From Anaeromyxobacter sp. (GTDB taxonomy: Bacteria; Myxococcota; Myxococcia; Myxococcales; Anaeromyxobacteraceae), in NCBI GenBank assembly GCA_031388695.1, contig JANMRY010000167.1:15206-79205 (forward strand): 64,000 nt of DNA, given 5' to 3'. The notes under the pieces were generated by a model, which was not told the DNA's origin, searched no databases, and saw only the letters and a program-made list of their open reading frames with translations. Made by a program: the position numbers and the translations under genes. Within the stretch, counting starts at the first letter, position 1, and every line of letters starts with the position of its first letter. This document shows positions 1,487 through 11,133 of the stretch, in pieces.

Positions 1487-2176
1487 CTACTGCATCTTGC
1501 GATAGACGCCGACCACCACGCCCAGGATCATGGTGGAGCGGAAGTCCTCCTCCGCCACGTAGATGGGGGCCATGCGCGGGTTGGAGGGCTGGAAGCGGAT
1601 CCGCTTCCCCTCGCGGAACATCCGCTTCACGGTCGCCTCGTCGTCGATCATGGCGACCACGATCTCGCCGTCGTCGGCGTTGAGCTGCTTCTTCACGAAG
1701 ACGTAGTCGCCCGGCAGGATGCCGTCGCCGATCATCGAGTCGCCCTGCACCTTGAGGCCGTAGACCTTCTTGTTGGTGCCGAGCAGGAAGGAGTCGACCT
1801 GGACGGTGTCCTCGACCCGCTCCTGGGCCAGGATGGGCTGGCCGGCGGCGACCCGGCCGAGGATGGGGACCTCGACCATGCGCGAGCCGGGGCGGGTGGC
1901 GACCGGGAACTGGAGCACCTTGGCCCCCTTGCCGTGGCTGGACGGGGAGAGCGCCCCGCGGGCGGCGTCGGTCGGGATCAGGGCGCGGGACTTGACCGGG
2001 TCGCGGGTGAGGAAGCCCTTGCGCTCCAGCGCCTTCAGGTGGTCGTTGACCCCGTTGGTGGAGCGGATGTCGAGCGCCTCGCCGATCTCGCGGATGGTGG
2101 GCGGATAGCCACGCTCCTCGATCTCGCGAGCGATGAAGCGGAGCACCTCGAGCTGTCGGTCGGTCAATCCGGTCAT
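1487..2176 (-). CDS. lexA: LexA repressor (SOS regulator, S24 peptidase)
   Basis: MTGLTDRQLEVLRFIAREIEERGYPPTIREIGEALDIRSTNGVNDHLKALERKGFL forms the winged-helix domain. An Ala-Gly cleavage site (VAAGQP) is present, with the GDSM serine and a downstream Lys (EATVKR). The ATG at 2176 has a GGAGG 6 nt upstream. The longer track ORF (to 2287) adds a non-homologous leader. Confidence 0.93.
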   Translation of the reverse strand: MTGLTDRQLEVLRFIAREIEERGYPPTIREIGEALDIRSTNGVNDHLKALERKGFLTRDPVKSRALIPTDAARGALSPSSHGKGAKVLQFPVATRPGSRMVEVPILGRVAAGQPILAQERVEDTVQVDSFLLGTNKKVYGLKVQGDSMIGDGILPGDYVFVKKQLNADDGEIVVAMIDDEATVKRMFREGKRIRFQPSNPRMAPIYVAEEDFRSTMILGVVVGVYRKMQ

Positions 2177-2184
2177 GACGCCTC

Positions 2185-2215
2185 CTGAACAGGGGTATCC
2201 TGTCACGCCGTTCAG
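2185..2215. promoter_or_regulatory. Candidate LexA operator: CTGAAC-N19-GTTCAG inverted repeat containing CTGTCACGCCGTTCAG
   Basis: It lies 9-39 nt upstream of the lexA start, in the lexA / membrane-protein divergent region. It matches the published myxobacterial LexA box, as I recall it (CTRHAMRYBYGTTCAGS), at 13 of 17 positions including the GTTCAG core. It is not a perfect match. Confidence 0.35.
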
Positions 2216-2380
2216 TCCGCCGCAAGTTCCCGTCACCAGCGCCTGGGACCTTCGCGCCGGTCTACAGGTCCCCATGAAAGCGGACATCTTCAGGTGCTTA
2301 TGACCCGGACCTCTTCAATGCTCCTTGCACTTGTCGCCGTCGCCGTTGCCGCGCCACACGGCCCCCGGTACGGTGGGGCC

Positions 2381-3280
2381 ATGCAGGCGACGGTGGGCGA
2401 GGCGATGCGGCTCGGGCTGGCCGGACTGGGGCGGGAGCGCTGGCTGGTGGCCGTCGGGCTGCTGACCACGCTGCTGCGCCGGGCGCTCGGCCTGCCGGCG
2501 CTGCTGGTCGGGCTGCTGCTGCTGGCCCGCGGGGCCTGGCAGGCCCACCAGCTGGCCCCGTGGTCGGGCGAGGCGCCGTCGCTCGGCGCCGGCTTCGTGG
2601 CGACCCAGCCGCGGGTGGTGGCGCTGGTGGTCGGCCTCTCGGCCTGCGCCGGGCTGCTCGGCTGGCTGCTGCGGGTCGCCTTCCTGGCCGGGGCGCTGCC
2701 GACGCTGGGCGGGGCGATGGGTGCCGAGGCGGAGCGCCACCCGCGCTTCGCGGAGGGGCTGGCCTGGGGCTTCGCCCCGCTGCTCCCGACCGCGGCGCTC
2801 GGCCTGGCGCTCGAGTGGACCGGGCAGCTCCTGCTGGCCGGCAGCCTCTTCGGCGCCTTCCAGGTGACGCAGGCGGCGGCCGGGTCCGGGCGGGTGGTGC
2901 TGGCCGCGGCGGTGGCCTTCATGCTGGTGGTGGCGCTGCTGGCGATGCTGCTTACTTCGGCGGTGGCCGACGCGGCGCTGGTGCGGACGGCGGTGCGCGG
3001 CGACGGCCCGGTCGAGGCGCTGGTGCAGGCCGCCGGCCGGGTGCTGGCCCGCCCCTCGGCCTACCTGCTCGCCTCGCTCGCCTTCACGGTGCTCTCGCTG
3101 GTGGCGACGGCGGTGGTCCAGTCGGTGGCCGGGGTGGCGAGCGGCCTGCTGGCCGGGGCGCCCGGCCTGGCCTCGCTCGGCCCCTCGCTCATGCTCGGCG
3201 CGCTGGCGCTGACGGTGGCGGCGGCGCTGGAGCTCTGGTGGCTGGCCAGCCTCACGGCGCTGGCGGCCCGCGAGGGATGA
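2381..3280 (+). CDS. Polytopic membrane protein of unknown function
   Basis: Ala/Leu/Gly-rich protein with several ~20-aa hydrophobic segments and high GC3. I prefer the ATG at 2381 (GGTGGGG upstream). Codons between the track start (2294) and 2381 have atypically low GC3 (tct, tca, ctt, gca, ctt, gtt). Confidence 0.6.
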   Translation: MQATVGEAMRLGLAGLGRERWLVAVGLLTTLLRRALGLPALLVGLLLLARGAWQAHQLAPWSGEAPSLGAGFVATQPRVVALVVGLSACAGLLGWLLRVAFLAGALPTLGGAMGAEAERHPRFAEGLAWGFAPLLPTAALGLALEWTGQLLLAGSLFGAFQVTQAAAGSGRVVLAAAVAFMLVVALLAMLLTSAVADAALVRTAVRGDGPVEALVQAAGRVLARPSAYLLASLAFTVLSLVATAVVQSVAGVASGLLAGAPGLASLGPSLMLGALALTVAAALELWWLASLTALAAREG

Positions 3281-4940
3281 AGCGCCGGATCGAGATCTTG
3301 CGGAGCCGGAACGGGGCGAGGTGGAGGGTGAGGGCGAAGCCGGCCACCGCCGTGCCGACGCCGAGCGCCACCAGGCCGGGGAGCGGCGAGGCGCGGAAGG
3401 CGACGATGATCAGGCCGCCGACCGTGAGGGAGGCGGAGAGCAGCCCGAGGAAGAGCAGCGTGCCGACCGAGCGGACCTGCTCGCCGAGTTGCTCGACGTC
3501 GGCGGAGCGGACGTTGATGCGCAGCTTGCCGCCCTCGAGGTCGGCGAGGATCTGCTGGAGCTGGTGCGGGACGTCTTCGGCCAGCCCCTGGAAGCGCAGC
3601 AGGGTTCGCATCAGCGTGCCGGAGGGGTCCTCGGGGCTGAAGCGGGCCAGCAGCAGCTGGCGGGCGTAGGGGAGCCCGACCTCGAGGATGTCGAGGCGCG
3701 GGTAGAGCCGGCGGATGATCCCCTCCACGGTCATGGAGGCCTTGGCCAGCACCGCGTACTCCTTGGGGACCTTGATGCGGTGGCGCACCGCGAGGTCGAG
3801 CAGGTCGCCGAGCAGGGTGGCGGTCCGGATCTCGTCGAGCCGCAGGCCGAGGTAGCGCTCGAGGATGCCCCCGATGTCGCCGCGCAGGTCGCCGAGCGGG
3901 CCGCGCGGGTCGGGGGCGCCGATCTTGTCGAGCAGCCGCGCCATCGAGTCGGGGTCGCGCAGCGCCACCGCCACGATCAGCGTGACCAGCAGCTCCTGCT
4001 GCGGGCGGGTGAGCCGTCCCACCAGCCCGAAGTCGAGCAGCGCCAGCCGGTTGCCGGGGAGGATGAGGATGTTGCCGGGGTGCGGGTCACCGTGGAAGAG
4101 CCCGTCCTCGAAGAGCTGCCGGAAGGACATCTCGATGATGTTCCGGGCGATCCGCTCCGGGTCGAAGCCGCCCTCGGGCGTGATGTCGTTGAGCCGCGTC
4201 CCCTCGATGTAGTCGAGGGTGAGCACCTGGCTGGAGGAGAGGGCGTCGTGGACCCGCGGGATCACCACCTGCTCGCGCCCCTCGTTGGCGGCGCGCATGG
4301 CCCGGGCGTTGCGGGCCTCGTTCTCGAAGTCGAGCTCCTCGTGGATGGTCCGGTCGAACTCCTCGATGACCGCGGTCGGGGTGTAGACGCCGGTCTCCTC
4401 GATGACCGCCTCGAGCAGCTTGGCCAGGTACTGGAGCAGGGCCAGGTCGGCGTCGATGCGGGCGCGGATGTCGGGGCGCTGCACCTTGACCACCACCTGC
4501 TGGCCGTCGTGGGTGCGGGCCCGGTGGACCTGGGCGATCGAGGCGCTGGCCAGTGGGGCCGGGTCGAGCTCGGCGAAGAGGGCCTCGACCGGCTTGCCGA
4601 GGCTGCGCTCGATGACCGTTCGGATGTCGGAGAGCGGCAGGGGCGGGCAGTCGTCCTGCAGCGCCTCGAGCTCCTTGATCCAGGCGGCCGGGAGGACGTC
4701 GCGGCGGGTGGAGAGGAGCTGGCCGAGCTTGGTGAAGGTGGGGCCGAGCTCGGCCAGCAGCTCGCGGAAGCGGGCGGCGGTGGAGCGGCTTCCGTCGGCC
4801 GGTGCGCCGGAGGGGGGCGGGGTGCCGCCCAGCTGCTCGGCCAGCCGGCTGCGCGAGAGGTAGGCGCCGAAGCCATGACGGACCACCGCCGCCGCGATCT
4901 GGCGCAGCCGGTTCAGGTCGTTGAAGGCTTCGCGGAGCAC
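3252..4940 (-). CDS. ubiB: ABC1/UbiB-family atypical protein kinase
   Basis: LGPTFTKLGQLLSTRRDVLPAAWIKELEALQDDCPPLP, ASIAQVHRA, VVVKVQRP and FHGDPHPGNI are hallmark ABC1/UbiB motifs. Two C-terminal TM helices are present. Confidence 0.9.
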   Translation of the reverse strand: MLREAFNDLNRLRQIAAAVVRHGFGAYLSRSRLAEQLGGTPPPSGAPADGSRSTAARFRELLAELGPTFTKLGQLLSTRRDVLPAAWIKELEALQDDCPPLPLSDIRTVIERSLGKPVEALFAELDPAPLASASIAQVHRARTHDGQQVVVKVQRPDIRARIDADLALLQYLAKLLEAVIEETGVYTPTAVIEEFDRTIHEELDFENEARNARAMRAANEGREQVVIPRVHDALSSSQVLTLDYIEGTRLNDITPEGGFDPERIARNIIEMSFRQLFEDGLFHGDPHPGNILILPGNRLALLDFGLVGRLTRPQQELLVTLIVAVALRDPDSMARLLDKIGAPDPRGPLGDLRGDIGGILERYLGLRLDEIRTATLLGDLLDLAVRHRIKVPKEYAVLAKASMTVEGIIRRLYPRLDILEVGLPYARQLLLARFSPEDPSGTLMRTLLRFQGLAEDVPHQLQQILADLEGGKLRINVRSADVEQLGEQVRSVGTLLFLGLLSASLTVGGLIIVAFRASPLPGLVALGVGTAVAGFALTLHLAPFRLRKISIRRFIPRGPPAP

Positions 4941-4954
4941 GGTTGGAATCTAGC

Positions 4955-6133
4955 TCAGAACGCGACCACCGTGCCGAGCGAGAGGCGCGCCTCCTCCGAC
5001 AGCCGGTCGTAGCGGGCCTCGGCCACGACGCGGACGTTGCGCCGGAAGAGCCAGCCGCCGTTGAGCCCGACCGACTCGCGCCGGACGGCCGAATCGCCGG
5101 AGATCACCTTGTTGCCGAGCAGGGCGACCGAGAACGGGCCGTTCTGCCCGGTCGGCAGCCAGACCGCCTCCAGCCAGCCGCCCCGGGTCACCACGCCTCC
5201 GGCGTTGGCCGGGTCGAACCTGGGGTTCGAGTCGGTGCGGGAGAGCCACTGGCCGGAGATCGTGAGGTCCTCCCCGAGCGCGATCGCCAGGTCTGGCCCC
5301 CAGTAGACGGTCTCGTTCAGCTCGCCGACCGCGCCACCGAGCGCCTTGCCGATCGAGCCGAAGAGGCCGAGGCGCACCGGGCCGAGGGGCATGACAACGC
5401 GCAGGCTCCAGGTCTTGAAGCGGTCGTCGTCGAAGGCGGAGGTGGCCGGGCCGATGCCATTGCCGTTGGTCACCATGCCGACCAGGTCGATCTCGGCCGG
5501 GGCGTGCCAGACCAGGATCAGCCCGCGGTCGTAGGTGAGGTTGGTCTGCGAGAGCCCCGGCTTGACGCGCAGGATCTCGTAGTCCTCCCGGGTGAGCCGC
5601 AGCTCGCGCTTCACGATGGGGTCGCAGACCTGGAACTGCCCCACCACCAGGTCGAGCGGGGCGCCGAAGATGGAGGAGAACTGGACCCAGGCGTCCTCGA
5701 TCCCCATGGCCTCGCCGCCGTTCTCGATGATGAAGTAGGTGTAGTAGCTCACGTCCCGGGCGATCTGGCCGCCCATCAGCGCCTTGAAGACGAAGGGGGT
5801 CTGGAAGTCGACCTGCGGGTTCCGCTGCCGCGCCCACTCGCCGTAGAGGTCGAGCCGAACCGCCAGCGGGAAGTCGCGGGGGAGCTGGAGCGCCTCGTCG
5901 CCCACGTCGAGGACGGCGCGGGCCGGCTCCTGGCCAGGCTCCATGGCGAAGCCGCGGGCGGCGAACTCCTCGCCGTAGGCCTTGAGCCGCGGGACCGGGG
6001 CGTGGCAGGTGGTGCAGCTGACCCGGTACTTGCGGGCGAAGGCCGGGATGGCGGCGGCCTCCAGCGGCGCCGCCAGCAGGGCCAGCGTGGCGGCGGCGAG
6101 GAGCGCGGAGAGGGCGGAGTGGGACGGGCGCAT
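4955..6133 (-). CDS. Outer-membrane beta-barrel protein with a single N-terminal CXXCH heme motif (fused cytochrome-porin, Cyc2/Cyt572-like architecture)
   Basis: The ATG at 6133 begins a signal peptide, MRPSHSALSALLAAATLALLAAPLEAAA. CTTCH occupies residues 40-44 (nt 6002-6016). The remaining ~345 aa are heme-free with an alternating hydrophobic strand pattern and a C-terminal ...LSLGTVVAF (terminal aromatic). The track merges this gene into a 1009-aa run-on ORF. Confidence 0.7.
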   Translation of the reverse strand: MRPSHSALSALLAAATLALLAAPLEAAAIPAFARKYRVSCTTCHAPVPRLKAYGEEFAARGFAMEPGQEPARAVLDVGDEALQLPRDFPLAVRLDLYGEWARQRNPQVDFQTPFVFKALMGGQIARDVSYYTYFIIENGGEAMGIEDAWVQFSSIFGAPLDLVVGQFQVCDPIVKRELRLTREDYEILRVKPGLSQTNLTYDRGLILVWHAPAEIDLVGMVTNGNGIGPATSAFDDDRFKTWSLRVVMPLGPVRLGLFGSIGKALGGAVGELNETVYWGPDLAIALGEDLTISGQWLSRTDSNPRFDPANAGGVVTRGGWLEAVWLPTGQNGPFSVALLGNKVISGDSAVRRESVGLNGGWLFRRNVRVVAEARYDRLSEEARLSLGTVVAF

Positions 6134-6150
6134 GGGCGTTCCCCTGGGGG

Positions 6151-7524
6151 CTACGGCAGGACGGTGAAGGTCGAGACGTGGGTGTTGATCAGCACCGGCT
6201 GGTACTCCTCGGCCGGCACCTTCATGAACTCGGCCACCGAGGAGACCAGGCGCGAGTACCAGACCGTGGCGGTGATGGTGACCAGCCCGGGCGGGAGGTC
6301 CTGGCGCGGCGAGAGCGTAAAGGTCTCCGACACCGACTGCAGCGGCGCCAGCCGGTAGTCGGTCCCGAGCGAGGCGGTGTTCCACTGGGCGATGGTCATG
6401 CGCCCCTTCTCGTCGAAGTAGGGCATGCGGAAGATCCGGTCGCCGTCCGGTACGGCGCCGTCGCGCGGCAGGCCGGCGAAGCCGGGGATCCCCTTGATGT
6501 CGCCGAGGTCCTGGTAGGCGAGCGCCTTCTGGTCGGCGATGGTCCACGCCTCGCCGGGGAAGCCCTTCTTCTCCACCCGCAGGTGGTGGACCTTGCCACC
6601 GGCGTCCTTGGCCTCGACGTGGAGCCAGAGCACCCGCTCCTCGGCCGAGCCGGAGGGGATGCGGTGGCCGGCCTTGGCGTTGACCACCACCGCGGTGATC
6701 TTGACCGGGTCGCCCGGCTCGACCTCGCGGGCCTCGGGGTGGACCCGCACCTCGGCGACGCCTGCCAGCTTCCCCGGGTCGTGGGCGCCGTGGAAGAGGT
6801 GCTGCCGGACGTCGTCGCGCTCCGGCCCCATCTTGGCGGAGCGGCCCCTGGCCGGCGGCATGTGGCAGGCCTGGCAGGGGATGCCGGCCTTGCCGTAGGG
6901 CCCCTCCGCCCACTCCAGCTGGGTCGACTTCACGAAGACGCCCCACGCGTCCTTCTCGTTGTGGCAGGTGCCGCAGAACTCGGCGGTCTTGAGGAAGGGG
7001 TTGTCCCTTGACTCGTGGTACGGGCTGCTGGCGTCGGAGCGGTTGCCCTGCTTCATGCGGCCCGGCTCGGAGATCCAGTTGAAGTTGAAGGAGACGTCGC
7101 CGGCCCGGCCGGTGATGGTGTGGCAGAGGTCGCAGCTGACGCCCTCGTTGGCCCGGGAGTTCTTCTCGGGGCGCGGCGGCGGGGCGTCGCCGGCGAGGAA
7201 GGCGATGGGGGCGTGGCAGCCGTTGCAGCCGTTCTTGATGCCGGCCACCTTGGGGTTCTTGGCGGCGTGCGGCACCGCCAGCTCGAAGTACTCGATCTCG
7301 TCCCAGTGGTGCGTGAAGCTCTGCGACATCATCGCCTGCTCGTGCTGCCGGGCGATGTCGACGTGGCAGGCGGCGCAGGCCTGGGGCTTCTCGTAGTCCT
7401 CGTACTTGCGGGTGCCGAAGGCCTCGTCGGAGGCCTTGGGGGCAGGGGGAGAGGCGGCCGACGCCGCCGACGGGACCGCGACGAGGGCGAGGACGACGGC
7501 GAGGACTCGGGCGGCCAGGCGCAT
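6151..7524 (-). CDS. Secreted pentaheme c-type cytochrome with heme-free C-terminal beta-rich half
   Basis: Signal peptide MRLAARVLAVVLALVAVPSAASA. Five CXXCH motifs are present: CAACH, CNGCH, CDLCH, CGTCH and CQACH. It ends 17 nt upstream of the cytochrome-porin gene on the same strand. Confidence 0.9.
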   Translation of the reverse strand: MRLAARVLAVVLALVAVPSAASAASPPAPKASDEAFGTRKYEDYEKPQACAACHVDIARQHEQAMMSQSFTHHWDEIEYFELAVPHAAKNPKVAGIKNGCNGCHAPIAFLAGDAPPPRPEKNSRANEGVSCDLCHTITGRAGDVSFNFNWISEPGRMKQGNRSDASSPYHESRDNPFLKTAEFCGTCHNEKDAWGVFVKSTQLEWAEGPYGKAGIPCQACHMPPARGRSAKMGPERDDVRQHLFHGAHDPGKLAGVAEVRVHPEAREVEPGDPVKITAVVVNAKAGHRIPSGSAEERVLWLHVEAKDAGGKVHHLRVEKKGFPGEAWTIADQKALAYQDLGDIKGIPGFAGLPRDGAVPDGDRIFRMPYFDEKGRMTIAQWNTASLGTDYRLAPLQSVSETFTLSPRQDLPPGLVTITATVWYSRLVSSVAEFMKVPAEEYQPVLINTHVSTFTVLP

Positions 7525-7569
7525 GGGGCACTCCTCTGGAACGGCGCTGCAGTTGGTTGAGACGTCGGC

Positions 7570-7740
7570 CTAGCCCCGCGGGACCTCGGGGTAGTGCGTC
7601 GCCAGGCAGCCCGTGAAGCCGGAGAAGTCCTCGCTGAAGAGGGCGGTCAGCCGGTCGTCGCGGGTGGCGTACTTCTTGAGATAGTCGTCGAGCAGTCCCC
7701 GGATCGACTGCTGGTCGCTTGGTGCCACGGCGTCGGCCAT
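7570..7740 (-). CDS. Small ORF resembling the N-terminal third of an NTF2/SnoaL-like domain (possible gene remnant)
   Basis: MADAVAPSDQQSIRGLLDDYLKKYATRDDRLTALFSEDFSGF... has high GC3 but is only 56 aa, which is too short for the full fold. Confidence 0.35.
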   Translation of the reverse strand: MADAVAPSDQQSIRGLLDDYLKKYATRDDRLTALFSEDFSGFTGCLATHYPEVPRG

Positions 7741-7907
7741 GCTCGGGACGCTCCCCTCGACGGCCACTAAGCCGCGTTCGGCGCTCCCGGACAAGCGCCA
7801 CTACGGGTACTTCAGGTTCGGCACCTGCGACATGGCGTGCCTGACGTCCCCGCGCTCCCGCCCCGCCGCTGGCCCCGTGAAGCGCTTCACGGTACAAACT
7901 CCCACCC

Positions 7908-10565
7908 ATGGCGGAGATCGCGGCGGCGCCCACGCCGATGATGCGGCAGTACCTCGAGTTGAAGGAGAGGTACCCCGACACCATCCTCTTCTTCCGGCTC
8001 GGCGACTTCTACGAGATGTTCTTCGAAGACGCCGTCACCGCCTCGCGCGTCCTCCAGATCACGCTGACCGCCCGCTCCAAGGGGGACGACAAGGTCCCCA
8101 TGTGCGGCGTGCCCTACCACGCCGCCCGCGGCCACGTGGCCAAGCTGCTGGCGGCCGGCCTCAAGGTGGCCATCTGCGACCAGGTCGAGACCGCCAGCGC
8201 CGGCACGCTGGTGAAGCGCGACGTCACCCGGGTCATCACCCCGGGCACCGTCTTCGACGAGCAGGCGCTCGAGCCCGGTGAGTCGGTCTGCCTGGCGGCG
8301 GTCGCCTTCGGCGAGCAGGGGATCGGCCTCGCCCTGCTCGAGACCACCACCGGCCAGCTGCGCTGCGGGGAGGTCGACGGCGACGCCCGCCTGGTCGACG
8401 AGCTGCGGCGGGCCGGCGCCCGCGAGCTGCTCTTCCCGCGCGGCGCCCCTGCCGACCGGGCCAAGGCGATCGCCGCTGCGGCCGGGGCCCCCTGGGTCCC
8501 GCGCGACGACGCCGAGTTCACCCGCGGCGCGGCGGTGCTGCAGCGCCACCTCGGCGTGCCGACGCTCGACGGCTTCGGCGTGGCCGGCCTGACCGTCGGC
8601 CTCGGGGCGGCGGCGGCGGCGCTCGCCTACCTGGCCGAGACCCAGCGCACCCCGCCGAGCCACGTCGACCGGATCTCGCGGCTGGCGACCGACGGCGTGC
8701 TGCTGATCGACGAGGCGACCCGGGCCAACCTGGAGCTGGAGCGGACGCTGCAGGGTGGCAAGAAGAAGGGGACGCTGCTGGCCCAGCTCGACCAGACGGT
8801 GACCGCCCCCGGCGCGCGGCTGCTGGCCGAGTGGCTCCGCTACCCGCTGGCCGAGGTGGAGCCGATCCAGGCCCGGCTCGACGCCGTGGAGGAGCTCTTC
8901 GGCTCGGCGGTGGCGCGCGGCGACCTCGGCCAGGCGCTGCGGCCGGTGGCCGACGTGGAGCGGCTGGTCTCTCGGCTGACGCTCAAGCAGGGGAACGCCC
9001 GCGATCTCAGGGCCCTGGCCGGCGCGCTGCTGGCCCTGCCGACGCTGGCGGCGCTGCTCGAGGCTCGCGCCGCGCCGCTCCTCGAGGCGGCCGGTGCCGG
9101 TCTGCGCGGGCTGGAGCCGCTGGCGGCGGCGCTCGACGCCGCGGTGGCGCTGGAGCCGCCGGCCACGCTCACCGAGGGCGGGCTGATCCGGCGCGGCCAC
9201 TCGGCCGAGCTCGACGAGCTGATCACGCTCTCCGAGGACGGCAAGGGGTACATCGCCGGCCTGGAGGCGCGCGAGAAGGCCCGGACCGGCATCGGCTCGC
9301 TCAAGGTCCGCTACAACAAGGTCTTCGGCTACTTCATCGAGGTGACCAAGGCCAACCTCCATGCCGTCCCGGCCGACTACACCCGCCGCCAGACCACGGT
9401 GGGCGGCGAGCGGTTCATCACCGAGGAGCTGAAGGGGTTCGAGGAGAAGGTGCTGACCGCCGAGGAGCGGCGCGGCGTGCTGGAGCAGACGCTCTTCGAG
9501 GCGCTGCGCCAGCAGGTGGTGGCGGCCGGGGCGAGGCTGCGGAGCGCCGCCCAGGCGGTGGCGCTGGCCGACGTGCTCCGTTCGCTGGCCGAGGTGGCGG
9601 CCGAGAAGGGCTACTGCCGCCCCGAGGTCGACCGCTCCGAGACGCTGGAGCTCACCGACGCGCGCCACCCGGTGGTCGAGGCGGCGCTGCCGGCCGACTC
9701 GGGCGGCTTCGTGCCCAACGACATCACCGTCGCCTCGTCGGGCGAGGCGGCGGCCGAGCGCTGCGGTGCGCTGCTGGTGATCACCGGCCCCAACATGTCG
9801 GGCAAGAGCACCATCATGCGCCAGGCGGCGCTCTGCACGCTCCTGGCCCAGCTCGGCAGCTTCGTGCCGGCGCGGCGGGCCCGGATCGGCCTCTGCGACC
9901 GGATCTTCACGCGCGTCGGCGCCTCGGATGATCTCGCCCGCGGCCGCTCCACCTTCATGGTGGAGATGACCGAGACCGCCGCCATCCTCCACAACGCCAC
10001 CCGCCGCTCGCTGGTCATCCTCGACGAGATCGGCCGCGGCACCTCGACCTACGACGGGGTCTCGATCGCCTGGGCGGTGGCCGAGCACCTGCACGACACC
10101 ATCGGCTGCCGCACCCTCTTCGCCACCCACTACCACGAGCTGCAGGAGCTCTCGCGCGAGCGGCCGCGGGTGAAGAACGTCTCGATCTCGGTGCGCGAGG
10201 TGGGGGAGAAGGTGGTCTTCCTGCGCAAGCTGGTGGCCGGCGGCGCCTCGCGCAGCTACGGGATCGAGGTGGCCAAGCTGGCCGGCCTGCCTCCCGAGGT
10301 GCTGGCGCGGGCCCGGCAGGTCTTGAAGAACCTCGAGGCGATGGAGCTCGACGAGGCCGGTCATCCGCAGCTGGCGGTGGGGCGGCGCGAGAAGGGGCGG
10401 GCGGCAGCGAGCGGGGCCGGGAGCCAGCTCGGGCTCTTCGGCGCACCTCCCGACCCGGCGCTGGCGGCGGTTCGCGAGGAGCTGGCGTCGCTCGACATGG
10501 ACGCCCTGCGACCGCTCGACGCACTCAACCTGCTGGCCGGCTGGAAGAAGAAGCTGGGCGGCTGA
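7908..10565 (+). CDS. mutS: DNA mismatch repair protein MutS
   Basis: N-terminal TPMMRQYLELKERYPDTILFFRLGDFYEMFFEDA, Walker A GPNMSGKST, and STFMVEMTETA...DEIGRGTSTYDG. The protein is 885 aa. Confidence 0.97.
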   Translation: MAEIAAAPTPMMRQYLELKERYPDTILFFRLGDFYEMFFEDAVTASRVLQITLTARSKGDDKVPMCGVPYHAARGHVAKLLAAGLKVAICDQVETASAGTLVKRDVTRVITPGTVFDEQALEPGESVCLAAVAFGEQGIGLALLETTTGQLRCGEVDGDARLVDELRRAGARELLFPRGAPADRAKAIAAAAGAPWVPRDDAEFTRGAAVLQRHLGVPTLDGFGVAGLTVGLGAAAAALAYLAETQRTPPSHVDRISRLATDGVLLIDEATRANLELERTLQGGKKKGTLLAQLDQTVTAPGARLLAEWLRYPLAEVEPIQARLDAVEELFGSAVARGDLGQALRPVADVERLVSRLTLKQGNARDLRALAGALLALPTLAALLEARAAPLLEAAGAGLRGLEPLAAALDAAVALEPPATLTEGGLIRRGHSAELDELITLSEDGKGYIAGLEAREKARTGIGSLKVRYNKVFGYFIEVTKANLHAVPADYTRRQTTVGGERFITEELKGFEEKVLTAEERRGVLEQTLFEALRQQVVAAGARLRSAAQAVALADVLRSLAEVAAEKGYCRPEVDRSETLELTDARHPVVEAALPADSGGFVPNDITVASSGEAAAERCGALLVITGPNMSGKSTIMRQAALCTLLAQLGSFVPARRARIGLCDRIFTRVGASDDLARGRSTFMVEMTETAAILHNATRRSLVILDEIGRGTSTYDGVSIAWAVAEHLHDTIGCRTLFATHYHELQELSRERPRVKNVSISVREVGEKVVFLRKLVAGGASRSYGIEVAKLAGLPPEVLARARQVLKNLEAMELDEAGHPQLAVGRREKGRAAASGAGSQLGLFGAPPDPALAAVREELASLDMDALRPLDALNLLAGWKKKLGG

Positions 10566-10670: not shown

Positions 10671-10961
10671 CTACTTCTTGTGGCACTCGGCGCACTTGGT
10701 CGGGCCCTTCTTGGCCTCCTTGTGGCAGCCCTGGCAGAGGGCGTGAGCCTTGTCCTTGTTGAAGCCCTCCATCTTGCCGCCCGCCTTGGTGGCGTGGCAC
10801 TTGGTGCAGTCGCCGCCCAGCTTCTCGGCGTGCGCCTTGTGGCTGAAGGCGACCTTGCCCTGCTTGGCCTCGAAGGTGATGGTGGCGGGCGCGTCAGCGG
10901 CGACGGCGACCCCAGCGGAGAAGACGAGTGCAGCGACGATACCGGCGAAGATCTTGTTCAC
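10671..10961 (-). CDS. ppcA: Periplasmic triheme cytochrome c7 (PpcA family)
   Basis: The GTG at 10961 has an AGGAG 6 nt upstream. The signal peptide is NKIFAGIVAALVFSAGVAVA. The 75-aa mature part carries CTKCH, CQGCH and CAECH, and its near-PpcA strings GKMEGFNKDKAH and KKGPTKCAECHKK end at the C-terminus. Confidence 0.9.
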   Translation of the reverse strand: MNKIFAGIVAALVFSAGVAVAADAPATITFEAKQGKVAFSHKAHAEKLGGDCTKCHATKAGGKMEGFNKDKAHALCQGCHKEAKKGPTKCAECHKK

Positions 10962-11133
10962 TTTACAGCTCCTGGATTCGGGGGCGGACCAGCCCGCCCA
11001 TCTGGATGGACGCGGCATGCTAGCCAGAATTCACTGGATGGCTAGGAAAAAGTGGCGGAATGTCGCAGGGATGAGACTAAGTCTTGACTGACCGTAGGCC
11101 AGCCCTGGGGACCCGAGATCGTTGGGCGTTCTT

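What the first reader, a model, noticed from the sequence alone, without database searches (positions are those of the whole stretch)
4955..7524. Fused monoheme cytochrome-porin (Cyc2/Cyt572-like architecture) paired with a pentaheme cytochrome
The 392-aa product of 4955-6133 has a cleavable-looking signal peptide. It carries exactly one CXXCH (CTTCH, residues 40-44) right after that peptide. The remaining ~345 aa are heme-free with a beta-strand-like alternation and a terminal Phe, as expected for an outer-membrane barrel. A separately encoded secreted cytochrome with five CXXCH motifs and a heme-free beta-rich C-terminal half lies 17 nt upstream. A UbiB-family kinase gene follows 14 nt downstream on the same strand. 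The one-heme-plus-barrel layout matches Cyc2 of Acidithiobacillus ferrooxidans, Cyt572 of Leptospirillum and Cyc2 of Mariprofundus, which are implicated in Fe(II) oxidation. Pairing with a dedicated pentaheme partner in a genome that otherwise looks like a metal-reducing myxobacterial type (PpcA-like c7 at 10671-10961) suggests an unstudied outer-membrane electron conduit. The direction of electron flow cannot be guessed from sequence.
Basis: partly seen in the sequence, partly recalled or inferred. Interest (0 to 1): 0.7.

Follow-up and report, generated by a model that had tools for sequence, protein, structure and literature searches.

The report
Cyc2-type cytochrome-porin with pentaheme partner
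This is a real two-gene cassette: an outer-membrane pore with one built-in heme (the Cyc2 iron-oxidase family) and a dedicated five-heme partner cytochrome. The pair is kept together in hundreds of bacterial species across many phyla, so it is probably a small, unstudied route for moving electrons across the outer membrane.

Summary
The 392-aa protein (4955-6133, minus strand) belongs to the Cyc2 fused cytochrome-porin family. It carries the published family-defining motif (AIPAFARKY, three residues, CTTCH, then PRL). Its cytochrome domain matches verified Mariprofundus Cyc2PV-1 profile-to-profile (97.9%, E 3.6e-13). Its model is a 16-strand porin.

The upstream 457-aa protein is a pentaheme cytochrome of the PHC family. 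Its closest solved structure is Thermochromatium tepidum cytochrome c552 (5ZE8), and it has a weak partial match to Geobacter ExtKL.

The main new result is the pairing. In 78 of 79 evaluable loci from Acidobacteriota, Ignavibacteria, Calditrichota, Zixibacteria, Gemmatimonadota, Krumholzibacteriota, Myxococcota and others, the pentaheme gene sits immediately upstream. The flanking genes differ everywhere. The UbiB neighbour is lineage-specific and not part of the module.

I read this as a minimal outer-membrane electron conduit for a soluble substrate, probably iron. Direction of electron flow and location of the pentaheme remain unresolved. Cyc2-like genes in some of these phyla are already called by FeGenie surveys. 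I found no description of the obligate pentaheme partner. Verdict: new variant of a known kind, moderate interest.

The parts
6151..7524 (-). Gene for the 457-aa secreted pentaheme c-type cytochrome (PHC family: N-terminal five-heme domain plus C-terminal Ig-like beta-sandwich). It is the first gene of the cassette.
   Evidence: Translation. Five heme sites are conserved in 68 orthologs. phmmer to PDB 5ZE8 gives E 1.3e-5. Foldseek top hit is 5ZE8 at E 5.3e-15, with the next hit at 3.9e-5. The NCBIfam ExtKL match is partial: 55.6 bits against a 250-bit cut-off.
7456..7524 (-). Signal peptide of the pentaheme (residues 1-23, MRLAARVLAVVLALVAVPSAASA|AS). There is no lipobox cysteine.
   Evidence: Read directly from the sequence. 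The model shows a helix at residues 2-21.
7363..7377 (-). Heme site 1 of the pentaheme (CAACH, residues 50-54). In many orthologs this site is CX3CH.
7213..7227 (-). Heme site 2 (CNGCH, residues 100-104).
7120..7134 (-). Heme site 3 (CDLCH, residues 131-135).
6961..6975 (-). Heme site 4 (CGTCH, residues 184-188).
6862..6876 (-). Heme site 5 (CQACH, residues 217-221, followed by invariant Met222).
6134..6150 (-). 17-nt intergenic spacer with a purine-rich ribosome-binding site (AGGGGA) before the ATG of the cytochrome-porin gene. This implies co-transcription.
   Evidence: Sequence. Orthologous pairs are typically about 0-25 nt apart.
4955..6133 (-). Gene for the 392-aa Cyc2-family fused monoheme cytochrome-porin. 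It is the second gene of the cassette.
5984..6052 (-). Cyc2 signature region at the mature N-terminus (residues 28-50): AIPAFARKY-RVS-CTTCH-APV-PRL.
   Evidence: The motif definition is in PMC8406198. The region is invariant or nearly invariant in A1 and in the genomic loci. It aligns to Cyc2PV-1.
4958..5863 (-). Predicted 16-strand outer-membrane beta-barrel (residues ~91-392, C-terminal Phe).
   Evidence: The AlphaFold2 model has 16 DSSP strands from residue 91, and pLDDT rises above 80 in the C-terminal half. Foldseek hits are 16-strand general porins such as OmpU, OmpT, Omp32 and OmpF, with E down to 1.6e-11.
5534..5629 (-). Long, highly conserved loop between strands 5 and 6 (residues ~169-200, ...CDPIVKRELRLTREDYEIL...). 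Its position is that of the pore-constricting loop L3 of general porins.
   Evidence: Invariant residues are D171, K175, R176, E177, L180 and R182. The L3 analogy is inference.
3252..4940 (-). ABC1/UbiB-family kinase gene, 14 nt downstream. It may be co-transcribed here, but it is NOT part of the conserved module.
   Evidence: Pfam and NCBIfam hits. It is absent next to the pair in 0 of 80 loci and in L082-L084. It is present only in the 84%-identical relative L081.

Best explanation
The two genes form a self-contained operon for a minimal outer-membrane electron conduit.

The 392-aa product is a Cyc2-family protein. After signal-peptide cleavage, its N-terminal ~60 residues bind one c-type heme. 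The rest folds into a 16-strand porin in the outer membrane, with the heme domain at or in the periplasmic mouth of the barrel.

The 457-aa product is a secreted PHC-type pentaheme cytochrome made of a five-heme domain and an Ig-like beta-sandwich. I propose it is the dedicated redox partner, and that it wires the single Cyc2 heme to the periplasmic cytochrome pool. A PpcA-like c7 gene lies 3 kb away.

A 16-strand barrel cannot sheath a multiheme protein, so the substrate must be a small soluble species that enters the pore. By homology with the three biochemically tested Cyc2 proteins, this is most likely Fe2+, oxidised at the heme, with electrons passing inward to the pentaheme.

Shown here: family membership of both proteins, the barrel size, and the obligate gene pairing.
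Inferred: physical interaction of the two proteins, periplasmic location of the pentaheme, iron as the substrate, and the inward direction.
For: Cyc2 membership:
- The motif AIPAFARKY-x3-CTTCH-x3-PRL matches the published family-defining consensus AXPXFAR[Q/K][T/Y] + CXXCH + PXL.
- I recovered real Cyc2PV-1 (P0292) using its published MS peptides.
- BLASTP against it gives 32% identity over 74 aa, E 8e-8 pairwise.
- hhalign of the subfamily against Zetaproteobacterial Cyc2 gives 97.9% probability, E 3.6e-13.
- A Zeta-Cyc2 HMM hits 76 of 76 members and 0 of 1,583 background proteins. The reciprocal HMM hits 32 of 32.
- The model has 16 strands, and the Foldseek hits are 16-strand porins.

The pentaheme partner:
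- Its best structural match is 5ZE8 at E 5.3e-15, about ten orders of magnitude better than the next hit.
- The PHC family (c552, ExtKL, GSU2801) is described in PMC11976967.

The pairing:
- The pentaheme gene is immediately upstream on the same strand in 78 of 80 loci from many phyla. The two others are one contig edge and one true exception.
- The pair also appears in L081-L084, including the isolate Anaeromyxobacter terrae.
- Flanking genes differ in every lineage.
- The two proteins diverge in parallel: r = 0.79, Mantel 0 of 2,000 permutations.

Functional precedent:
- Cyc2 of A. ferrooxidans, Cyt572 and Cyc2PV-1 oxidise Fe(II), and the small pore implies dissolved Fe2+ as substrate.
Against: - The direction of electron flow is not supported by anything in the sequence.
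- The hosts are mostly anaerobic or facultative heterotrophs rather than lithotrophic iron oxidisers. Literature cited describes Ignavibacteria (Melioribacter) and Thermoanaerobaculum as Fe(III) reducers, and one search treats Anaeromyxobacter as an Fe(III) reducer.
- The only characterised PHC protein is a low-potential cytochrome. ExtKL lies in a Geobacter gene cluster implicated in selenite and tellurite reduction (abstract).
- Homology to Cyc2PV-1 is detectable only in the ~50-residue cytochrome domain. The porin part does not align.
- The His-to-PXL spacer is 3 residues, against 4 in Cyc2PV-1.
- No His or Met other than the proximal His44 is conserved, so the sixth heme ligand is unknown.
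- The heme domains of both models have low confidence.
- The location of the pentaheme (periplasm or cell surface) was not tested.
Confidence: 0.5

Rival explanations
1. Same two-protein conduit, run in the opposite direction. Electrons from the quinol pool and periplasmic c7-type cytochromes pass through the low-potential pentaheme to the Cyc2-type heme. The heme then reduces a soluble acceptor that enters the pore, such as chelated Fe(III), humic quinones or flavins, or oxyanions such as selenite.
For: - Host range: the cassette is found in Melioribacter, Ignavibacterium, Thermoanaerobaculum, Anaeromyxobacter, Holophagales and many anaerobic members of the Fibrobacterota-Chlorobiota-Bacteroidota (FCB) group and Acidobacteriota. 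No classical iron oxidiser appears among the 80 loci listed.
- Several of these taxa are treated as Fe(III) reducers in the literature.
- Partner family: c552 is low-potential, and ExtKL is linked to extracellular or oxyanion reduction.
- Pfam and NCBIfam sub-threshold hits of the pentaheme are to MtrC/OmcA-type pentaheme domains.
- FeGenie notes cluster 3 cyc2 in Geobacter and Rhodoferax and allows 'possible iron reduction'.
Against: - Every Cyc2 tested biochemically so far oxidises Fe(II).
- Soluble Fe(III) is scarce at neutral pH unless chelated.
- No measured potential exists for this subfamily.
- Bis-His multihemes such as MtoA also work in oxidation.
Confidence: 0.3
2. Surface-cytochrome topology. 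The pentaheme is exported to the cell surface, like a 'half-MtrC' (pentaheme domain plus beta-sandwich), and docks on the extracellular face of the barrel. The Cyc2-type heme plugs the pore and links the periplasm to an extracellular pentaheme able to touch minerals or electrodes.
For: - The pentaheme hits the MtrC/MtrF domain II/IV model (E 1.8e-5) and the OmcA/MtrC TIGRFAM (E 3.9e-7), both below cut-off.
- Its domain order (heme domain plus Ig-like sandwich) resembles half of MtrC.
- The PHC family has been compared to nanowire-forming cytochromes.
Against: - There is no lipobox, and no secretion-system gene is linked to the pair.
- A single heme in a 16-strand barrel is unlikely to bridge the whole membrane unless partner hemes approach closely from both sides.
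- Nothing here measures location.
Confidence: 0.12
3. Not an energy-conserving conduit. The heme has an open or weakly ligated sixth position and acts catalytically or as a sensor at the outer membrane, for example in peroxide or NO detoxification or Fe2+ detoxification. The pentaheme serves as its electron reservoir.
For: - No conserved His or Met distal ligand exists in 61 orthologs.
- The cassette sits in unrelated genomic contexts, sometimes next to ferritin-like DUF2202 proteins or two-component regulators.
Against: - Zetaproteobacterial Cyc2 also lacks an obviously conserved distal ligand, yet Cyc2PV-1 behaves as an electron-transfer cytochrome.
- There is no similarity to peroxidase or c'-type families.
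Confidence: 0.07

Closest known systems
Cyc2 fused cytochrome-porins (Cyc2 of Acidithiobacillus ferrooxidans, Cyt572 of Leptospirillum, Cyc2PV-1 of Mariprofundus ferrooxydans; Keffer et al. 2021, PMC8406198)
   Same: - Signal peptide, and a single CXXCH at the mature N-terminus.
- The family-specific AXPXFAR[Q/K][T/Y] motif with the same spacing to the heme site, and a PXL after it.
- Length above 365 aa, and a 16-strand porin body ending in Phe.
- Cytochrome domain detectably homologous to Cyc2PV-1.
- No Pfam or NCBIfam model for either protein.
   Different: - A distinct, tightly conserved ~390-aa subfamily, shorter than most Cyc2.
- One residue fewer between the heme His and PXL.
- The porin part does not align with cluster 1 Cyc2.
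- The hosts are mostly anaerobic heterotrophs or iron reducers.
- An obligate upstream pentaheme partner replaces the Cyc1, rusticyanin or other partners of known systems.
- Cluster assignment (1, 2 or 3) was not determined.
PHC pentaheme cytochrome family: Thermochromatium tepidum cytochrome c552 (PDB 5ZE8), Geobacter ExtKL and GSU2801, cable-bacteria sPHC/lPHC (PMC11976967)
   Same: Five heme sites followed by an Ig-like beta domain. 5ZE8 is by far the best structural and sequence match in the PDB. There is a partial match to the ExtKL model.
   Different: - Only about 20% identity to c552.
- Far below the ExtKL equivalog cut-off (55.6 against 250 bits).
- No in-frame stop interrupts the ORF, so no selenocysteine is encoded.
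- Always followed by a Cyc2-type cytochrome-porin, a context not reported for c552 or ExtKL in the papers I could read.
Geobacter ExtHIJKL cluster (porin-like ExtI next to pentaheme ExtKL)
   Same: A PHC-type pentaheme gene lies next to a gene for an outer-membrane porin-like protein in a putative trans-outer-membrane redox system.
   Different: - From my own knowledge, not checked here: ExtI has no heme site.
- The Geobacter cluster contains extH and extJ and is followed by further cytochrome genes.
- Here the porin itself carries the heme, and the module has only two genes.
- Homology between ExtI and this barrel could not be tested because no ExtI sequence was available.
MtrCAB / MtoAB / PioAB porin-cytochrome complexes
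   Same: An outer-membrane barrel plus c-type cytochromes moving electrons across the outer membrane. The direction is reversible in principle.
   Different: Those use a 26-strand barrel sheathing a decaheme. Here the barrel has 16 strands with a fused monoheme and a separate pentaheme that cannot fit inside.

Membership tests
Cyc2 fused cytochrome-porin (criteria of Keffer et al. 2021 / FeGenie) | N-terminal signal peptide | tested here: met
   MRPSHSALSALLAAATLALLAAPLEAAA|IPAF: a positive n-region, a hydrophobic core and an AxA-type site. The model shows a helix at residues 5-21. No signal-peptide predictor was available.
Cyc2 fused cytochrome-porin (criteria of Keffer et al. 2021 / FeGenie) | Exactly one CXXCH, near the N-terminus | tested here: met
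   CTTCH at residues 40-44 is the only such motif. C40, C43 and H44 are invariant in 41 and in 61 homologs.
Cyc2 fused cytochrome-porin (criteria of Keffer et al. 2021 / FeGenie) | AXPXFAR[Q/K][T/Y] motif upstream of the heme site (FAR, five residues, then CXXCH) | tested here: met
   A28-I-P-A-F-A-R-K-Y36, then RVS, then C40. The spacing is identical to Cyc2PV-1 (AIPAFARQT-GAA-C).
Cyc2 fused cytochrome-porin (criteria of Keffer et al. 2021 / FeGenie) | PXL motif 4 residues downstream of CXXCH | tested here: inconclusive
   PRL is present, and P48 and L50 are invariant. However, only 3 residues (APV) separate it from His44, against 4 (FQTF) in Cyc2PV-1. The HMM alignment places a one-residue gap there. 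All loci where the pattern could be read show a gap of 3.
Cyc2 fused cytochrome-porin (criteria of Keffer et al. 2021 / FeGenie) | Length of at least 365 aa (375 in the FeGenie paper) | tested here: met
   392 aa.
Cyc2 fused cytochrome-porin (criteria of Keffer et al. 2021 / FeGenie) | 16-strand beta-barrel porin body | tested here: met
   The AlphaFold2 model (pLDDT 73, pTM 0.71) has 16 DSSP strands between residues 91 and 391. Foldseek best hits are 16-strand porins with E 1.6e-11 to 1e-8 and TM 0.5-0.57. The published comparison for Cyc2 was to OprO/OprP, which were not among the top 50 hits here.
Cyc2 fused cytochrome-porin (criteria of Keffer et al. 2021 / FeGenie) | Detectable sequence homology to a verified Cyc2 | tested here: met
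   Against Cyc2PV-1 (P0292, identified by 9 of 12 exact MS peptides):
- BLASTP E 8e-8 pairwise.
- hhalign 97.9% probability, E 3.6e-13.
- Reciprocal HMM searches are specific.
The homology is limited to the cytochrome domain, as the family's authors say is typical.
Cyc2 fused cytochrome-porin (criteria of Keffer et al. 2021 / FeGenie) | Placement in phylogenetic cluster 1, 2 or 3 / score above FeGenie HMM cut-offs | not tested
Indirect hint: FeGenie calls cyc2 in Aminicenantes and Krumholzibacteria MAGs, and both phyla carry this subfamily.
Cyc2 fused cytochrome-porin (criteria of Keffer et al. 2021 / FeGenie) | Fe(II) oxidase activity | not testable with these tools
   Requires biochemistry or genetics.
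PHC pentaheme cytochromes (T. tepidum c552 / ExtKL / GSU2801) | Five c-type heme-binding sites in the N-terminal domain | tested here: met
   Five CXXCH motifs are present. All five sites are conserved in 68 orthologs, with site 1 as CX3CH in many.
PHC pentaheme cytochromes (T. tepidum c552 / ExtKL / GSU2801) | Fold like c552 (5ZE8), including the C-terminal Ig-like domain | tested here: met
   phmmer gives E 1.3e-5 with three colinear stretches spanning both domains. Foldseek gives E 5.3e-15 and TM 0.48/0.55, with the next hit at 3.9e-5. The heme-domain part of the model has low confidence.
ExtKL (NCBIfam NF040886 equivalog) | Score above the curated cut-off over the full length | tested here: not met
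   55.6 bits against a 250-bit cut-off, matching residues 163-320 only. It is a relative, not an ExtKL ortholog.
MtrAB/PioAB/Pcc-type porin-cytochrome complexes | Large barrel (about 20-26 strands) enclosing a periplasmic multiheme cytochrome | tested here: not met
   The barrel has 16 strands. DmsE and MtrC family hits of the pentaheme are far below cut-off.
Three-gene module including UbiB kinase | Conserved linkage of the kinase gene with the pair | tested here: not met
   0 of 80 loci have a UbiB homolog within the fetched flanks. It is absent in L082-L084 and present only in the 84% relative L081.

The most novel reading that the evidence does not exclude
The pentaheme-Cyc2 cassette is a widespread, horizontally mobile, two-protein outer-membrane conduit. 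In anaerobic heterotrophs it runs outward or in both directions, reducing soluble extracellular acceptors.

If so, 'cyc2' hits in Ignavibacteria, Acidobacteriota, Zixibacteria, Krumholzibacteriota, Anaeromyxobacter and similar taxa would be systematically misread as iron-oxidation markers in metagenomic surveys. The PHC pentaheme family would also gain its first defined physiological partner.
Probability: 0.3. Interest if true: 0.75.

Novelty: new variant of a known kind. Interest (0 to 1): 0.55.

Why it matters
- Marker-gene interpretation. Cyc2 is the most widely used marker gene for microbial iron oxidation. This subfamily occurs in at least 588 species-representative genomes, mostly organisms not known as iron oxidisers. 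It always travels with a pentaheme partner that canonical Cyc2 systems lack. Knowing which way electrons flow through it would change how cyc2 hits are read in sediment, aquifer, hot-spring and soil metagenomes.
- A tractable model system. With only two proteins, the cassette would be the smallest genetically defined porin-cytochrome system. Cultured hosts are available, including Anaeromyxobacter terrae, Thermoanaerobaculum aquaticum, Melioribacter roseus, Ignavibacterium album and Rosettibacter primus.
- A function for the PHC family. It would give a first functional context to the PHC pentaheme family, whose role is still open.

Tried and rejected
- Pfam and NCBIfam scans of the 392-aa protein found nothing meaningful. 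This is not evidence against Cyc2 membership, because verified Cyc2PV-1 also has no hit in either library.
- A PDB sequence search with the 392-aa protein gave only chance-level hits.
- An exact-sequence lookup of the 100%-identical protein P0001 found no contig on record. The nearest named relatives of the pentaheme are Anaeromyxobacter terrae (78%) and an Anaeromyxobacteraceae MAG.
- UbiB as a third component was rejected.
- A search for other conserved neighbours found none beyond the pair. A sensor kinase plus sigma-54-type response regulator lies nearby (mostly upstream) in about 13-14 of 80 loci. A DUF2202 ferritin-like lipoprotein lies next to 8 loci.
- GSU2801 of Geobacter as part of an equivalent pair was not supported. 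GSU2802 is a nitrogen-fixation regulatory gene.
- Sigma-70 promoter and terminator scans of 3000-8100 were uninformative. No promoter-like site was found, as expected at 72% G+C.
- The porin parts of this subfamily and of Zetaproteobacterial Cyc2 did not align by BLASTP or hhalign.
- Literature searches for Cyc2 together with Anaeromyxobacter, ExtKL or a pentaheme partner found no description of the pairing. Two survey papers that mention cyc2 together with Zixibacteria, Calditrichota or Ignavibacteriales (PMC8478452, PMC9769843) could therefore not be read.

Full report
**1. Observation**

The minus strand of 3252-7524 carries three tightly spaced genes.
- 6151-7524 encodes a 457-aa protein with an ASA|AS signal peptide. 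It has five CXXCH motifs starting at residues 50, 100, 131, 184 and 217, and a heme-free C-terminal half.
- After a 17-nt spacer with an AGGGGA ribosome-binding site, 4955-6133 encodes a 392-aa protein. It has a Sec-type signal peptide, one CXXCH (CTTCH, residues 40-44) and a C-terminal ...VVAF.
- After 14 nt, 3252-4940 encodes an ABC1/UbiB-family kinase (PF03109, E 1.5e-75).

A scan of all six frames of the 64-kb window found only three open reading frames with a clear c-type cytochrome signature. They are these two and a triheme c7-like gene at 10671-11018.

**2. The 392-aa protein is a Cyc2-family cytochrome-porin**

Pfam, NCBIfam and PDB sequence searches found nothing for it. It nevertheless has more than 1,446 homologs of about 390 aa, all annotated 'hypothetical'.

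Keffer et al. 2021 (PMC8406198) define the Cyc2 family by these features:
- a signal peptide and a single CXXCH;
- an AXPXFAR[Q/K][T/Y] motif said to be unique to Cyc2;
- a PXL motif after the heme site;
- a length above 365 aa;
- a 16-strand porin.

The window protein reads A28-IPAFARKY-RVS-CTTCH-APV-PRL. This stretch is invariant or nearly so in 41 homologs and in the genomic loci.

To test homology directly, I recovered the biochemically characterised Cyc2PV-1. I queried the protein database with the MS peptides printed in that paper's Table S1. The top hit, P0292 (436 aa, Mariprofundus ferrooxydans), contains 9 of 12 peptides exactly. The comparisons gave:
- BLASTP against it aligns the cytochrome domain at 32% identity over 74 residues, E 8e-8 pairwise.
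- Profile-profile comparison of the subfamily (A1) with 32 Zetaproteobacterial Cyc2 (A2) gives 97.9% probability, E 3.6e-13 over 50 columns.
- An HMM of A2 hits 76 of 76 members of the subfamily and none of 1,583 background proteins from the same loci. The reciprocal HMM hits 32 of 32 Zetaproteobacterial Cyc2.
- As a control, Cyc2PV-1 itself has no Pfam or NCBIfam hit.

The AlphaFold2 model (pLDDT 73, pTM 0.71) has 16 strands between residues 91 and 391. A long conserved loop lies between strands 5 and 6. Foldseek finds 16-strand general porins, with E down to 1.6e-11.

Two caveats apply. The porin parts do not align between this subfamily and cluster 1 Cyc2, which the family's authors describe as typical. 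Also, the spacer between the heme His and PXL is 3 residues instead of the 4 in Cyc2PV-1.

**3. The partner**

The 457-aa protein is a relative of the PHC pentaheme family.
- Its only significant PDB sequence hit is 5ZE8, the pentaheme cytochrome c552 of Thermochromatium tepidum. E is 1.3e-5, with colinear stretches in both domains.
- Its model has a confident C-terminal beta-sandwich and a low-confidence heme domain. Foldseek matches it to 5ZE8 at E 5.3e-15, ten orders of magnitude ahead of the next hit.
- It partially matches the NCBIfam ExtKL model, far below cut-off.

The PHC family (c552, ExtKL, GSU2801 and the cable-bacteria pentahemes) is described in PMC11976967, which notes that no clear function is assigned. 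All five heme sites are conserved in 68 orthologs, and the first is CX3CH in many of them.

**4. The pairing is the main result**

A scan of one genome per GTDB species found at least 588 loci encoding relatives of the 392-aa protein. The hosts include:
- Thermoanaerobaculia, Holophagales and Aminicenantes;
- Ignavibacteria, including Ignavibacterium album and Melioribacter roseus;
- Calditrichota, Zixibacteria, Gemmatimonadota, Krumholzibacteriota, KSB1 and Bacteroidota;
- a Chromatiales MAG and deltaproteobacterial MAGs.

In 78 of the 80 loci fetched, a homolog of the pentaheme (52-80% identical) lies immediately upstream on the same strand. Of the other two, L075 is cut by the contig end and L067 is a true exception. 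In L073 both genes are fragmented. Typical gaps between the two genes are about 0-25 nt.

Lookups starting from one further cytochrome-porin (L081) and three pentaheme proteins (L082-L084) show the same pair, including in the isolate Anaeromyxobacter terrae.

Nothing else is conserved around the pair. The UbiB gene accompanies it only in the window and in an 84%-identical relative. Pairwise divergences of the two proteins are correlated (r = 0.79, Mantel 0 of 2,000). This fits inheritance as a unit, although shared vertical descent alone would also produce some correlation.

**5. Mechanism**

What is shown:
- an outer-membrane 16-strand barrel with a fused monoheme domain of Cyc2 type;
- a secreted pentaheme;
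- obligate co-encoding of the two.

What is inferred:
- The two proteins interact.
- The pentaheme is periplasmic. It has no lipobox and no linked secretion genes.
- The pentaheme connects the single heme to the periplasmic cytochrome pool.
- The substrate is a small soluble species that enters the pore. A 16-strand barrel cannot enclose a multiheme, unlike the 26-strand Mtr/Mto barrels.

By homology with the three tested Cyc2 proteins, Fe2+ oxidation is the default reading.

Against that direction:
- The hosts are mainly anaerobic heterotrophs, and several are treated as Fe(III) reducers in the literature.
- The one characterised PHC protein is low-potential.
- ExtKL sits in a reductive cluster.

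My estimates are about 0.85 that this is a two-component outer-membrane electron conduit, about 0.6 that iron is the substrate, and only slightly better than even that flow is inward. The overall confidence for the full statement is therefore 0.5.

**6. Novelty**

Cyc2 homologs in non-iron-oxidisers have been noted before. Examples are Ignavibacteriaceae and Bacteroidetes MAGs and Aminicenantes and Krumholzibacteria via FeGenie. The cytochrome-porin alone is therefore a new member of a known family.

I found no paper that links Cyc2 with a PHC/ExtKL-type pentaheme partner. This comes with limits: the library is incomplete, and the reading cap stopped me from opening two survey papers.

The closest analogue in layout is Geobacter ExtI-ExtKL, a porin-like protein next to a PHC pentaheme. 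From my own knowledge, not checked here, ExtI carries no heme. I classify the cassette as a new variant of a known kind.

**7. Limits**

- Cluster assignment within Cyc2 was not possible.
- The heme domains of both models are unreliable.
- No complex prediction was available.
- Location, redox potentials and direction of flow all need experiments.

Noticed in passing
window 4955-6133 (residues 28-392); alignment of 61 orthologs: No His or Met other than the proximal His44 is conserved in this Cyc2 subfamily. The only strictly conserved candidate ligands are Lys51, Lys117, Lys175, Lys240 and several Tyr residues. Zetaproteobacterial Cyc2 likewise lacks an obviously conserved distal ligand. The sixth heme ligand is therefore unknown.
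   Followed up: partly
window 7363-7377 and orthologs in L001-L080: The first heme site of the pentaheme partner is CXXCH in some lineages, including the window, and CX3CH (for example CGSSCH or CGTSCH) in many Ignavibacteria and Bacteroidota orthologs.
   Followed up: partly
L024, L041, L046, L058, L061, L068, L069, L071 (next to the pair): A ~200-aa lipoprotein with a DUF2202 (ferritin-like) domain lies within about 110-370 nt of the cassette in eight Ignavibacteria-type loci. It is upstream in six and downstream in two. The Pfam hit is E 2.3e-42. This may be a hint of an iron-handling context.
   Followed up: partly
L016 1-3305 and about 13 other loci: A sensor histidine kinase and a sigma-54-type (NtrC-like) response regulator lie within 5 kb of the cassette, mostly upstream, in about 13-14 of 80 loci. 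In A. terrae a dCache_3 sensor protein lies directly upstream.
   Followed up: no
window 10671-11018 (-): A small triheme c7/PpcA-like periplasmic cytochrome gene (three CXXCH; Cytochrome_C7 and class III hits) lies 3 kb from the cassette. It is separated from it by mutS on the other strand. It could be a periplasmic relay, but linkage was not tested in other genomes.
   Followed up: partly
window 7570-7794 (-): A 74-aa ORF just upstream of the pentaheme gene has only a weak partial SnoaL-like hit (E 0.046). It may be a gene remnant or not a gene at all.
   Followed up: no
window 1487-4940 compared with L081 2736-6126: The order pentaheme, Cyc2-like, UbiB-family kinase, Pfam-less protein on the opposite strand, LexA is shared with the contig of the 84%-identical relative. 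The UbiB adjacency is therefore lineage synteny rather than a module feature.
   Followed up: yes
proteins P0244, P0259, P0276 (480-543 aa) from the representative search: Longer cytochrome-porins carry the same (A/V)(I/V)P(A/T)FARKY...C..CH..FP.LN signature. They have a large Ala/Glu-rich insertion in the middle of the barrel region. This is another uncharacterised branch of the Cyc2 superfamily.
   Followed up: no
L073 7057-9104: In this MAG both genes of the cassette are split into fragments. This is either a pseudogenised cassette or an assembly error.
   Followed up: no
L083 2561-7783: In one 2.2-Mb contig the cassette lies just downstream of heme-biosynthesis-type genes (URO-D, HemN-like radical SAM, amino-oxidase-type protein) and a rubrerythrin-VIT1 fusion gene. 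This was seen in a single locus only.
   Followed up: no
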